NCBI GenBank assembly: GCA_934644775.1 | Contig: CAKUDB010000005.1 | Location: 51,036-115,035, forward strand | Length of the DNA stretch: 64,000 nt | Source: an uncultured bacterium | GTDB lineage: Bacteria; Vulcanimicrobiota; Xenobia; Xenobiales; Xenobiaceae | Reading direction: 5' to 3' | In this document: in pieces, positions 29,190 to 30,206 of the stretch | How positions within the stretch are numbered: position 1 is the first letter of the stretch | Layout: every line of letters starts with the position of its first letter | The notes under the pieces: generated by a model | The model's database searches: none | The model's input: the letters and a program-made list of their open reading frames with translations, nothing else | Told to the model about the DNA's origin: nothing | Position numbers and translations under genes: made by a program

Positions 29190-30206
29190 ATGGGTATGGA
29201 AATTCGCGGTCCCAACTTAGGGACATACGACGCAGGTTATCTGCAGGCCGTTCAGCGCGAAATGGCCCGCAGCGTAAAATCGAACATATTAAAAGAAGTA
29301 GGCGATATTGAAGACCAAGTGGCTTTGGCTTTGCAAGGCAACTTGGAAGATTCGGTTACTTTGTCACCAGAAGCCAAAGCTTATCTTAAGAAGCTGCGCC
29401 GCAAGCTTCTTAAGGATAAGGGCTTAGCTCTTATTGGTGAAGAAGAAGATGAAGACGAGGAAGAAGAAAAGCCTGAGCGCGACTTTAACGGCTTGCTCAG
29501 CGACTTAGATTCTTTCCGGCGCAGCCAGTCGGAGCAAGAAGGGCAAAAACAACCACAAAATTTAATCTTTCCCACCACCATCCAACTTTCCGGCTTTGTG
29601 CCCAATCCCAATAAGCGCCTCCACCATCAGGTTTATTCGCCGGTACGTGAAACGATCAATCGCATGATCTACTACGCTCCAACCGAAGCTTCGCGCCTCA
29701 AAGTTCAGGACGAACTAGAGCCTATGGGAGCCAAGATTATCTCTCAAGTAAGATCTTTCGGTGCCCATATTATCGTCTTAGATCGTCGCCAGGCTCTCAC
29801 TCAACTTAAGATCAAGGGCATGTATGTAGTGGCCCCTTCCGAAAAGACCTTCGACGGCCGCTATTGGTCTGAGGTGCGCGGCTTGTATGATTCTTCTCGC
29901 CGCCTGTTAGTCATAGGCGAAGAGCAATTAGGACAGCCCAATCATTCGGTAGCCAGACACGAATTTGCCCACGCCTACGATAATGCCTTCAGCGAAACTC
30001 ACGGCCGTCGTTTGCCCTTATCGGTACAATTATGGAACAAGTTCCGCCACAGTCGCACCGGCTTAGTCTCAAGCTATGCCTCTACCAATCCAGCAGAATA
30101 TTTTGCCGAAACTGTGGAAGCCTATTTCCAACCAACTTTAAAGCCTCTTGTAGAACAACGCGATCCGGAAATGTATGCTTATTTGCAAGAGCTTTTTGCT
30201 TCTTAA
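29190..30206 (+). CDS. Anthrax-lethal-factor-like (ATLF) zincin metallopeptidase domain protein with an acidic N-terminal region and no signal peptide
   Basis: The C-terminal LLVIGEEQLGQPNHSVARHEFAHAYD...NPAEYFAETVEAYF aligns to the LF domain IV sequence ILLHGPSKG...GFIHEFGHAVD...EAEFFAEAF, that is HExxH plus a downstream Glu in EFFAE. Confidence 0.6.
   Translation: MGMEIRGPNLGTYDAGYLQAVQREMARSVKSNILKEVGDIEDQVALALQGNLEDSVTLSPEAKAYLKKLRRKLLKDKGLALIGEEEDEDEEEEKPERDFNGLLSDLDSFRRSQSEQEGQKQPQNLIFPTTIQLSGFVPNPNKRLHHQVYSPVRETINRMIYYAPTEASRLKVQDELEPMGAKIISQVRSFGAHIIVLDRRQALTQLKIKGMYVVAPSEKTFDGRYWSEVRGLYDSSRRLLVIGEEQLGQPNHSVARHEFAHAYDNAFSETHGRRLPLSVQLWNKFRHSRTGLVSSYASTNPAEYFAETVEAYFQPTLKPLVEQRDPEMYAYLQELFAS

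What the first reader, a model, noticed from the sequence alone, without database searches (positions are those of the whole stretch)
29190..30206. Anthrax-lethal-factor-like (ATLF) zinc metalloprotease domain protein without signal peptide
The C-terminal 120 aa align convincingly with the catalytic centre of anthrax lethal factor domain IV. The block LLVIGEEQLGQPNHSVARHEFAHAYD...NPAEYFAETVEAYF corresponds to LF ILLHGPSKG...HEFGHAVD...EAEFFAEAF. The N-terminal half is highly acidic (EEEDEDEEEE) and unrelated. ATLF-like zincins outside Bacillus are typically toxin or effector domains. With no Sec signal this could be an effector delivered by another route, or an intracellular protease. It is immediately followed by a giant secreted pseudo-transglutaminase and a kinase-cyclase-like signalling protein.
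Basis: partly seen in the sequence, partly recalled or inferred. Interest (0 to 1): 0.65.

Follow-up and report, generated by a model that had tools for sequence, protein, structure and literature searches.

The report
Conserved non-secreted lethal-factor-fold zinc protease
This gene encodes a zinc protease with the anthrax lethal factor / Pro-Pro endopeptidase fold, but it is a tightly conserved, apparently intracellular gene found only in one group of uncultured bacteria (class Xenobia), so it is more likely a housekeeping or regulatory protease of unknown target than a toxin.

Summary

The domain call and the missing signal peptide are confirmed. The toxin/effector idea is not supported. 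The genome is Candidatus Bruticola (class Xenobia, Eremiobacterota/Vulcanimicrobiota). Full-length orthologues occur in about 53 species-level Xenobia-type genomes from guts, rumen, soil and groundwater, and nowhere else. The gene sits among housekeeping genes. It is the most constrained of eight neighbouring genes (dN/dS 0.025 against 0.056-0.11).

The N-terminal 75 aa are conserved almost as well as the catalytic domain. They match no known family and are joined to it by a variable, highly charged linker.

My reading is a cytoplasmic, substrate-specific zinc endopeptidase with a tethered regulatory or docking module. C. difficile CD1597 and MtfA are the nearest analogues. Substrate and role are unknown. 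It is a new variant of a known kind, of modest interest.

The parts
29190..30206 (+). Whole ORF, 338 aa plus stop: the Xenobia-specific ATLF-fold zinc peptidase. The true start may be the second ATG at 29196, because most homologues begin M-[ED]-I-x-G-P.
29190..29414 (+). N-terminal conserved module, aa 1-75 (basic, pI 9.05). It carries the motifs I-x-G-P-N-F-G-x-Y-D...VQRExARSVKPNVLR and D54-x-V-x-L58-S-P-E-A62-K followed by an amphipathic basic helix. D54, L58 and A62 are invariant. It has no Pfam or PDB match, and AlphaFold models it with low confidence apart from helix 60-76.
29415..29564 (+). Variable, highly charged linker, aa 76-125 (pI 4.06). It includes the acidic run EEEDEDEEEE (aa 84-93, 29439..29468). 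Orthologues carry different acidic runs, and some also carry poly-Lys runs. It is predicted flexible.
29565..29594 (+). Conserved short motif ahead of the catalytic domain, aa 126-135 (IFPTTIQLSG). The family consensus is [F/L/V]-P-x-x-I-x-L-S, and many orthologues read ..PF[LVM]PP... Its role is unknown. It might act as a tethered pseudo-substrate or as an extra strand; that is inference only.
29604..30203 (+). Catalytic ATLF/M34-fold domain, aa ~139-338. pLDDT is ~98 from residue 150 onward.
29835..29867 (+). Near-invariant family-specific loop P-[GS]-E-[RK]-T-F-D-G-R-P-W, aa 216-226. It aligns with the substrate-covering S-loop and S1 pocket of PPEP-1 (P100...W110). The S1-pocket residues are kept as P216 and W226, but the S-loop aromatic (Trp103 in PPEP-1, Tyr113 in PPEP-3) is Lys/Arg here.
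29958..29972 (+). HEFAH zinc-binding and catalytic motif (H257, E258, H261). All three are invariant in 121 sequences, and the motif lies in predicted helix 254-270.
30075..30110 (+). Y296-ASTNPA-E303-YFA-E307. Y296 aligns with the oxyanion-hole Tyr178 of PPEP-1. E303 aligns with the third zinc ligand, Glu185. All three named residues are invariant.
30346..33807 (+). Context only: the downstream 1153-aa secreted Transglut_core protein. It lacks the catalytic Cys and has three PWDKY repeats after the signal peptide. It sits directly downstream on the same strand in 16 of the 17 related loci that carry it (ATLF identity >=52 %). No homologue was detected near the more distant orthologues.
27374..29023 (+). 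Context only: the upstream glutamine-dependent NAD synthetase (NadE).

Best explanation
The gene encodes a catalytically competent, non-secreted (by default cytoplasmic) zinc endopeptidase of the M34/ATLF fold. Structurally it is closest to the Pro-Pro endopeptidases. It belongs to a family confined to the uncultured class Xenobia (Eremiobacterota/Vulcanimicrobiota), where it appears vertically inherited and is under very strong purifying selection.

Proposed mechanism: H257, H261 and E303 hold the zinc. E258 acts as the general base and Y296 stabilises the oxyanion. A near-invariant loop (aa 216-226) closes over an extended peptide in a narrow cleft, giving cleavage of one or a few specific cellular proteins rather than bulk degradation. 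The conserved N-terminal 75 residues are tethered by a flexible polyampholyte linker. They act as a regulatory, autoinhibitory or partner/substrate-docking module.

Shown here: fold, catalytic residues, absence of export signals, phyletic distribution and selective constraint. Inferred: cytoplasmic location, narrow specificity, and the role of the N-terminal module. The substrate is unknown.
For: - Pfam ATLF is above its curated threshold.
- H257, E258, H261, Y296, E303 and E307 are invariant in 121 homologues.
- AlphaFold gives pLDDT ~98 for aa 150-338, with HExxH and E303 in the expected helices.
- Foldseek ranks PPEP-3, PPEP-2 and PPEP-1 at E~1e-7 and lethal factor at 7e-6.
- No signal peptide or membrane segment appears anywhere in the family, and the N-terminus is fixed in position.
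- About 53 species-representative genomes carry a full-length orthologue at 36-96 % identity. All are Xenobia/UBP9/Vulcanimicrobiota-type MAGs from gut, rumen, groundwater, sediment and sludge. Below them the list drops sharply to C-terminal-only matches in other phyla.
- Only about 16 full-length clusters appear among 1.84 billion representative proteins.
- dN/dS is 0.025-0.027, against 0.056-0.11 for seven neighbouring genes. Identity is 95-96 % where NadE is 81-84 %, and 74 % where NadE and PolB are 49 %.
- The N-terminal segments 1-35 and 54-75 are conserved (0.63 and 0.64) almost as well as the catalytic domain (0.67). The linker is not (0.34).
- The window is housekeeping context with no secretion or mobile-element genes, and there is no PADLOC defence hit.
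- There are precedents for non-secreted relatives with extra N-terminal domains: C. difficile CD1597 (PMC11460543) and MtfA (PDB 3dl1).
Against: - No experiment or expression data exist for any member.
- Cytoplasmic location is inferred only from the absence of recognisable export signals. A conserved, disordered N-terminus could in principle be an unrecognised export or targeting signal.
- AlphaFold does not place the N-terminal module on the catalytic domain with any confidence (pLDDT 46-62 for most of aa 1-145), so autoinhibition or docking is conjecture.
- In the gut/rumen-centred subclade, the gene is consistently followed on the same strand by a secreted protein (16 of the 17 loci that carry it, gaps of 24-244 bp). 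That could hint at an extracytoplasmic function.
- Distant signal-peptide-bearing relatives share the TFDGRxW loop (P0167 and P0220).
- CD1597, the nearest architectural analogue, showed no protease activity in vitro (PMC11460543).
Confidence: 0.6

Rival explanations
1. It is a secreted toxin or effector exported by a non-classical route, acting on host or competitor proteins as lethal factor does. The conserved N-terminus would be the export signal.
For: The M34/ATLF fold is best known from toxins. The closest relatives live in animal guts. The N-terminus is conserved, predicted disordered and fixed in position.
Against: - Orthologues are equally present in groundwater, sediment, sludge and soil Xenobia.
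- dN/dS is the lowest of the local gene block, the opposite of arms-race evolution.
- The setting is chromosomal and housekeeping, with no secretion-system, chaperone or mobile-element genes in 64 kb.
- There is no receptor-binding or translocation domain.
- The gene's identities fall in step with those of its neighbours, which points to vertical inheritance.
Confidence: 0.08
2. It is a PPEP-like processing protease whose substrate is the adjacent secreted, Cys-less transglutaminase-like protein. Characterised PPEPs cleave the cell's own surface adhesins.
For: - PPEPs are the best structural match.
- PPEP-1 and PPEP-2 cleave the bacterium's own cell-surface adhesion proteins (PMC8610288, PMC11460543).
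- The transglutaminase-like gene lies directly downstream on the same strand in 16 of the 17 loci that carry it, with no terminator-like site between the two genes in the window.
- The neighbour has Pro-rich linkers, five Pro-Pro dipeptides and three PWDKY repeats.
- PPEP S1/S1' pocket residues are kept as P216, W226 and V229.
Against: - The protease has no signal peptide while the proposed substrate is secreted.
- No homologue of the transglutaminase-like protein was detected near any orthologue of <=49 % identity, although the protease stays highly conserved there.
- In the subclade the whole NadE-to-SHC block is syntenic, so the adjacency may simply be inherited.
- The S-loop aromatic essential for PPEP activity is Lys/Arg here, and the diverting loop is shorter and variable.
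- Sequence similarity to PPEPs (E~4e-4) is far below the 1e-25 used to define that family (PMC8610288).
Confidence: 0.12
3. It is an MtfA-like (M90) cytoplasmic aminopeptidase whose main job is to bind and titrate a transcription regulator.
Against: The M90 match covers only the C-terminal half of the domain. The NCBIfam MtfA equivalog scores 12.6 bits against a cut-off of 400. ATLF and the PPEPs match better and over the full domain. The N-terminal module is unrelated to anything known. No conserved regulator gene lies nearby.
Confidence: 0.1
4. It is a pseudo-protease or scaffold that keeps the fold but works by binding, as suspected for CD1597.
For: CD1597 has an intact HExxH yet showed no activity in several assays (PMC11460543). 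ATLF-fold domains are reused for protein binding in lethal factor domain I, edema factor and Certhrax (PMC12943098).
Against: Every catalytic residue (H257, E258, H261, Y296, E303) is invariant across 121 sequences down to ~43 % identity. A non-catalytic scaffold would not be expected to show that.
Confidence: 0.08

Closest known systems
Pro-Pro endopeptidases PPEP-1/Zmp1 (C. difficile), PPEP-2 (Paenibacillus alvei) and PPEP-3 (Geobacillus thermodenitrificans); MEROPS M34, EC 3.4.24.89
   Different: Identity is only 18-20 %, far below the family's 1e-25 criterion (PMC8610288). There is no signal peptide. There is an extra 140-aa N-terminal region. The S-loop aromatic (Trp103/Tyr113) is replaced by Lys/Arg. 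The diverting loop is 2 aa shorter and lacks the conserved His. The Glu184-Glu185 tandem reads Ala/Gln-Glu. It is found in Eremiobacterota rather than Firmicutes.
C. difficile CD1597 (putative intracellular PPEP-like protein; PMC11460543)
   Same: It has a PPEP/ATLF-like C-terminal domain with an intact HExxH, no signal peptide, and an N-terminal region of unknown function joined by an unstructured linker. Its function is also unknown.
   Different: The N-terminal part of CD1597 is a ~210-aa folded domain. Here it is a ~75-aa conserved segment plus a charged linker, with no predicted globular fold. CD1597 is spore-associated in a Firmicute.
Anthrax lethal factor, catalytic domain IV (PDB 1J7N; MEROPS M34)
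   Different: Lethal factor is a ~90-kDa, four-domain, secreted, plasmid-encoded toxin with a protective-antigen-binding domain. None of these features is present here.
MtfA / Mlc titration factor A (Peptidase_M90, PF06167; PDB 3dl1)
   Different: The match is partial. The NCBIfam equivalog fails (12.6 against 400 bits). The N-terminal regions are unrelated, and the taxonomic range is different.

Membership tests
Pfam PF07737 ATLF / MEROPS M34-type zincin | Score above the curated Pfam gathering threshold over most of the domain | tested here: met
   50.4 bits against 27.4; aa 170-334 cover model positions 28-192 of 193. All 120 listed homologues also carry the precomputed PF07737 assignment.
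Pfam PF07737 ATLF / MEROPS M34-type zincin | HExxH in the active-site helix, a downstream Glu as third zinc ligand, and a catalytic Tyr seven residues before it | tested here: met
   H257, E258, H261, Y296 and E303 are invariant in 121 sequences. They align with PPEP-1 H142, E143, H146, Y178 and E185. The helices are at 254-270 and 301-313.
Pfam PF07737 ATLF / MEROPS M34-type zincin | Three-dimensional fold of lethal factor domain IV / PPEP | tested here: met
Pfam PF07737 ATLF / MEROPS M34-type zincin | Zinc-dependent peptidase activity | not testable with these tools
   Needs purified protein.
Pro-Pro endopeptidase family (EC 3.4.24.89) sensu van Leeuwen et al. 2021 | Close sequence similarity to PPEP-1/PPEP-2 (BLAST E<=1e-25) | tested here: not met
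   phmmer E=3.9e-4 to PPEP-1 and 7.7e-4 to PPEP-2, at 18-20 % identity. The criterion is from PMC8610288.
Pro-Pro endopeptidase family (EC 3.4.24.89) sensu van Leeuwen et al. 2021 | Secreted (N-terminal signal peptide) | tested here: not met
   No hydrophobic N-terminal segment in the window protein or its family. This rests on a hydropathy analysis, not a dedicated signal-peptide predictor.
Pro-Pro endopeptidase family (EC 3.4.24.89) sensu van Leeuwen et al. 2021 | Residues forming the S1/S1' proline pockets: Pro100, Trp103 (Tyr in PPEP-3), Trp110, Val113, His134, Leu139, His142 | tested here: inconclusive
   Kept: P216, W226, V229, H257, and V/T/A254. Not kept: the S-loop aromatic is R/K219, and the His134 position is variable in a loop 2 aa shorter. 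Loop alignment at 20 % identity is uncertain.
Pro-Pro endopeptidase family (EC 3.4.24.89) sensu van Leeuwen et al. 2021 | Cleavage between two prolines | not testable with these tools
   Needs peptide-library assays.
Anthrax-toxin-type A component (lethal factor-like toxin) | N-terminal protective-antigen-binding domain, multi-domain architecture, secretion, and linkage to a B component or virulence plasmid | tested here: not met
   The protein is 338 aa. Its N-terminal 150 aa match no family. There is no signal peptide. The neighbours are chromosomal housekeeping genes.
MtfA / Peptidase_M90 | Full-length match to M90 models (Pfam PF06167; NCBIfam PRK15410 equivalog) | tested here: not met
Anti-phage defence system component (PADLOC) | Match to any PADLOC model | tested here: not met
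   No hit for this protein or for the transglutaminase-like neighbour.

The most novel reading that the evidence does not exclude
The family is a clade-defining, regulated intracellular endopeptidase of class Xenobia. It would be a cytoplasmic descendant of the PPEP/lethal-factor fold that cuts a specific, possibly proline-containing, motif in one key cellular protein. Its conserved N-terminal segment and the [F/L/V]-P-[P/S/T]-x-I-x-L-S motif, tethered by a polyampholyte linker, would act as a built-in pseudo-substrate switch or a docking/targeting peptide. That would be a new regulated-proteolysis module, with no counterpart among the M34 enzymes whose role is known, all of which are secreted.
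Probability: 0.2. Interest if true: 0.55.

Novelty: new variant of a known kind. Interest (0 to 1): 0.33.

Why it matters
The M34 peptidases whose function is known are secreted toxins or adhesin-releasing enzymes. This is a second, independent case after C. difficile CD1597 of the fold being used without an export signal. Here it is a slowly evolving gene restricted to one class and present in about 53 of its species-level genomes, which suggests an intracellular role for the fold that has not yet been worked out. The family has invariant catalytic residues and a near-invariant substrate loop, so it is a cleaner biochemical target than CD1597 for finding what intracellular PPEP-like enzymes cleave. 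It is also a handy marker gene for the poorly known, uncultured class Xenobia. For annotation, the practical message is that an 'anthrax lethal factor-like' label in these gut bacteria should not be read as a virulence factor.

Tried and rejected
- **S-loop equivalence.** I first read the HMMER alignment as showing that PPEP-1's S-loop Lys101/Trp103 equal R224/W226. Counting residue by residue (PDB chain index = residue number minus 22) showed that W226 aligns with Trp110 and R224 with Lys108. The Trp103 position is Lys/Arg219. The claim was withdrawn.
- **Second paralogue.** ORF clustering suggested a second paralogue near the gene in L019 and L042. Inspection showed alternative-frame Arg/Pro/Gly-rich ORFs inside NadE. 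Rejected.
- **Conserved partner gene.** The NadE–peptidase–transglutaminase-like–kinase–SHC block holds only for orthologues of >=52 % identity. Distant members instead sit near a GNAT acetyltransferase (20 of 57 loci, in variable positions) or a TrpD-like gene (14 loci). No consistent functional partner emerged.
- **N-terminal 150 aa.** There is no Pfam hit and no significant PDB sequence hit. N-terminal-only hits in the representative search are truncated members of the same family. The weak multi-repeat hits P0180 and P0237 share only an 'LSPEAK'-type helix, and Pfam gave nothing convincing for them.
- **Other scans.** PADLOC gave no hit for the peptidase. Rfam and tRNA scans of the window found nothing. 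The promoter/terminator scan around the gene found nothing above shuffled expectation.
- **AlphaFold database search.** The afdb50 library was unavailable.
- **Unrecognised export signals.** From my own reading of the N-terminal sequence, no Tat, lipobox, prepilin or double-glycine leader pattern is present. This was not checked with a dedicated tool.
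Full report
**Observation**

It begins at the first start codon after an upstream stop, so no hidden N-terminal extension is possible. The quoted strings are all present: HEFAH at aa 257-261, YASTNPAEYFAE at aa 296-307, and the EEEDEDEEEE run at aa 84-93. Most homologues begin M-[ED]-I-x-G-P, so the second ATG at 29196 may be the real start.

**Family assignment**

- Pfam assigns the protein to ATLF (PF07737) at E=2.8e-13. The score is 50.4 bits against a gathering score of 27.4, over aa 170-334 and model positions 28-192 of 193.
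- There is a weaker, C-terminal-only match to Peptidase_M90/MtfA (32.9 against 26.2 bits, aa 247-336).
- NCBIfam has no model for it. The MtfA equivalog scores 12.6 bits against a cut-off of 400.
- Among solved structures, the single sequence finds the Pro-Pro endopeptidases (PPEP-1/Zmp1, PPEP-2, PPEP-3) at E~4e-4.
- A 121-sequence family profile finds PPEP-1 at E=3.6e-10 over aa ~139-327, and lethal factor at E~2e-5.

**Structure**

AlphaFold2 with the 121-sequence alignment gives pLDDT ~98 for residues 150-338. Most of residues 1-145 score only 46-62. Three isolated helices are predicted there (40-49, 60-76, 99-114), and only helix 60-76 reaches pLDDT ~80.

HEFAH lies in helix 254-270 and E303 in helix 301-313.

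| Search | Best matches |
|---|---|
| Foldseek, PDB | PPEP-3, PPEP-2, PPEP-1 at E 2e-7 to 1e-6 (target-normalised TM 0.61-0.67); lethal factor at 7e-6 |

The catalytic set is invariant in all 121 homologues: H257, E258, H261, Y296 and E303, with Y296 seven residues before E303 as in PPEP-1 (Y178/E185).

**Organism and distribution**

The closest database proteins (95 % and 85 % identity) are named Candidatus Bruticola sp. More distant ones are labelled Xenobia, Eremiobacterota or Vulcanimicrobiota. NCBI taxonomy places Bruticola in class Candidatus Xenobia, phylum Vulcanimicrobiota. The genus was named by Ji et al. 2021, with type species B. papionis (PMC12281948).

- All 120 listed homologues are full length (286-375 aa, nearly all with 99 % coverage), down to 41 % identity.
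- A filter-free HMM search of 1.84 billion representative proteins found only 538 hits at E<=1e-3. Only about 16 of these are full-length clusters.
- The next tier shares the catalytic domain but has unrelated N-termini. Where those proteins carry names, they are also Eremiobacterota.
- A scan of one genome per species found about 53 genomes with a full-length orthologue (36-96 % identity). They come from human, baboon, goat and cattle guts, groundwater, sediments and sludge.
- Below those, the list drops sharply to 30-37 % matches covering only the last ~85 residues, in Planctomycetota, Verrucomicrobiota and Myxococcota.
- Several of the carrier MAGs have implausible labels such as Burkholderiales, Riflebacteria, Selenomonadaceae or Nitrosotenuis. 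I take these to be mislabelled Xenobia bins.

**Architecture**

The alignment shows four parts.

1. **aa 1-75.** This region is basic (pI 9.05) and conserved almost as well as the catalytic domain. Column conservation is 0.63 for aa 1-35 and 0.64 for aa 54-75, against 0.67 for the catalytic domain. D54, L58 and A62 are invariant. The motif D-x-V-x-L-S-P-E-A-K leads into an amphipathic basic helix.
2. **aa 76-125.** This is a poorly conserved (0.34), strongly charged linker (pI 4.06). In other species it carries different acidic runs, and in some also poly-Lys runs.
3. **aa 126-135.** This is a short conserved motif, [F/L/V]-P-x-x-I-x-L-S. In many orthologues it reads ...PF[LVM]PP...
4. **aa ~139-338.** This is the catalytic domain.

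The N-terminal 150 aa match no Pfam family and no PDB sequence. N-terminal-only hits in the big search are truncated members of the same family.

No member has a signal peptide or membrane helix. The family-wide maximum 19-residue hydropathy is 1.59. The single hydrophobic N-terminus (P0080) is an upstream extension ahead of the normal start.

**Substrate-binding features**

I used the residue lists for PPEP-1 and PPEP-3 (PMC12828418) and the HMMER alignments.

- Kept: S1/S1' pocket residues Pro100, Trp110 and Val113 correspond to P216 (91 of 121), W226 (121 of 121) and V229 (120 of 121).
- Not kept: the S-loop aromatic that closes over the substrate (Trp103 in PPEP-1, Tyr113 in PPEP-3) is Arg or Lys at position 219.
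- Not kept: the diverting-loop His134 position is variable, in a loop two residues shorter.
- Partly kept: the Glu184-Glu185 tandem reads Ala/Gln-Glu.

The loop itself, P-[GS]-E-[RK]-T-F-D-G-R-P-W, is nearly invariant within the family. That argues for one conserved, specific substrate. It does not allow me to predict Pro-Pro specificity. An earlier reading that R224/W226 equal Lys101/Trp103 was wrong and has been withdrawn.

**Selection and context**

The protein evolves more slowly than its housekeeping neighbours.

| Comparison genomes | This protein | NadE | PolB | SHC |
|---|---|---|---|---|
| Closest species | 95-96 % | 81-84 % | ~80 % | 87-91 % |
| More distant genome | 74 % | 49 % | 49 % | 69 % |

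Nei-Gojobori dN/dS against two orthologous loci (dS ~0.9) is 0.025-0.027 for this gene. The other seven genes in the block range from 0.056 to 0.11.

The 64-kb window is ordinary chromosome. It carries NadE, GroEL, a family-B polymerase, an M32 carboxypeptidase, a Ser/Thr kinase, squalene-hopene cyclase, UDP-glucose pyrophosphorylase, an ABC ATPase, HtrA-like and NlpC/P60 enzymes and others. No secretion-system or mobile-element genes are present. There are no Rfam or tRNA hits and no PADLOC hit for the peptidase.

**Neighbourhood**

In orthologues of >=52 % identity, the transglutaminase-like gene is present in 17 loci. In 16 of them it follows the peptidase gene on the same strand after 24-244 bp. 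In L021 it has been rearranged away. The wider block NadE – peptidase – Transglut_core protein – Ser/Thr kinase – small ORF – squalene-hopene cyclase is syntenic in this subclade.

In all orthologues of <=49 % identity that block is gone. The recurrent neighbours there are a GNAT acetyltransferase and a TrpD-like gene, in variable positions. The adjacency to the transglutaminase-like protein therefore cannot explain the family's conservation. It may still matter within the gut/rumen-centred subclade.

That neighbour has a signal peptide and three PWDKY repeats. Its core motif, GNPE[GS]KALL, has no Cys where the catalytic Cys should be.

**Interpretation**

Shown here:
- It is a real, strongly constrained gene.
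- It encodes an ATLF/M34-fold zincin with a complete catalytic set.
- It has no recognisable export signal.
- It is restricted to class Xenobia, and its identities fall in step with those of its neighbours.

Inferred:
- It works inside the cell as a specific endopeptidase.
- Its conserved N-terminal segment, tethered by a flexible charged linker, regulates or targets it.

The nearest analogues are C. difficile CD1597 and MtfA. [quoted passage not shown] MtfA is a cytoplasmic M90 peptidase.

The toxin/effector reading is weakly supported. The evolutionary rate, the distribution across habitats and the genomic context all point the other way. A role in processing the adjacent secreted protein is possible in the subclade but conflicts with the missing signal peptide. 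A pseudo-protease role is unlikely given the invariant catalytic residues.

**Verdict**

This is a divergent, lineage-specific variant of a known peptidase fold. Public annotation already labels it 'zinc-dependent peptidase'. It has an uncharacterised N-terminal module and an unknown substrate. Interest is modest. The most unexpected finding is that a lethal-factor-fold protease is among the most conserved genes in its neighbourhood in an uncultured bacterial class.

Noticed in passing
window 30346..33807 (+): A 1153-aa secreted Transglut_core protein. Its core motif reads GNPEGKALLL, with no Cys where the catalytic Cys should be (His and Asp are kept). It carries three PWDKY repeats just after the signal peptide (aa 46, 81, 133). 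The Cys-less core, the signal peptide and 3-4 PW[DE]KY repeats are conserved in orthologues down to ~43 % identity (L006, L010, L011, L014, L021).
   Followed up: partly
The kinase hits PADLOC PD-T4-6 models, which I take to be generic kinase-domain similarity.
   Followed up: yes
window 4789..8580 (+); GC profile 4001..8000: A 1263-aa ORF with no Pfam match lies in the only clearly GC-rich stretch of the window (0.54 against ~0.45 elsewhere). Other large ORFs without Pfam hits are at 59057..61966 (-, 969 aa), 44597..46375 (+, 592 aa) and 38480..39913 (+, 477 aa).
   Followed up: no
window 29190 versus 29196: There are two in-frame ATG codons (MGMEIRGP). Most homologues start at the equivalent of the second one (MEI.GP). 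An AGGA lies 10 nt before the first ATG and 16 nt before the second.
   Followed up: partly
window 23716..26064 (-): A family-B DNA polymerase (782 aa) lies in a bacterial chromosomal context and is syntenic across the Bruticola-related genomes.
   Followed up: no
window 10890..13077 (-): A JAB/MPN-domain protein with a C-terminal LysM domain (11893..13077) sits next to an NlpC/P60 + SH3 cell-wall hydrolase (10890..11891). This is an unusual pairing of a JAB metalloprotease with peptidoglycan-binding modules.
   Followed up: no
loci L008, L018, L022, L023, L032, L035, L036, L040, L058; P0025: Public MAGs carrying this Xenobia-type gene, some with Xenobia-type synteny, are labelled Riflebacteria, Burkholderiales, Chloroflexota, Armatimonadetes, Bacillota, Selenomonadaceae or Nitrosotenuis. 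These are probably taxonomic mislabels in the records.
   Followed up: no
P0180 and P0237 (sequence of P0180): These are ~800-900-aa proteins made of seven or more ~80-aa repeats containing '...RLSPEAKQVLDVYKKY...'. They match the profile's N-terminal helix region (E 1e-14 and 7e-9 summed over repeats). The 'LSPEAK' helix may be a recurring short module or a chance or compositional match. Pfam gave only scattered weak hits.
   Followed up: partly
L001, L022-L024, L027, L030, L037, L043-L051, L053, L055, L057, L058; window 46452..47153 (-): A ~196-aa GNAT (Acetyltransf_3) gene recurs within ~2 kb of the peptidase gene in 20 of 57 loci of distant orthologues, sometimes immediately upstream with a gap of 6-52 bp. 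In the window, a GNAT of the same Pfam family lies 16 kb away.
   Followed up: partly
orthologue linkers, alignment A1 columns ~140-165: Several distant orthologues (P0057, P0087, P0094, P0100) carry runs of 6-10 lysines flanked by acidic runs in the linker. Some short database 'proteins' (P0196, P0248) end in such runs, which may reflect frameshifts or assembly breaks at poly-A tracts.
   Followed up: no
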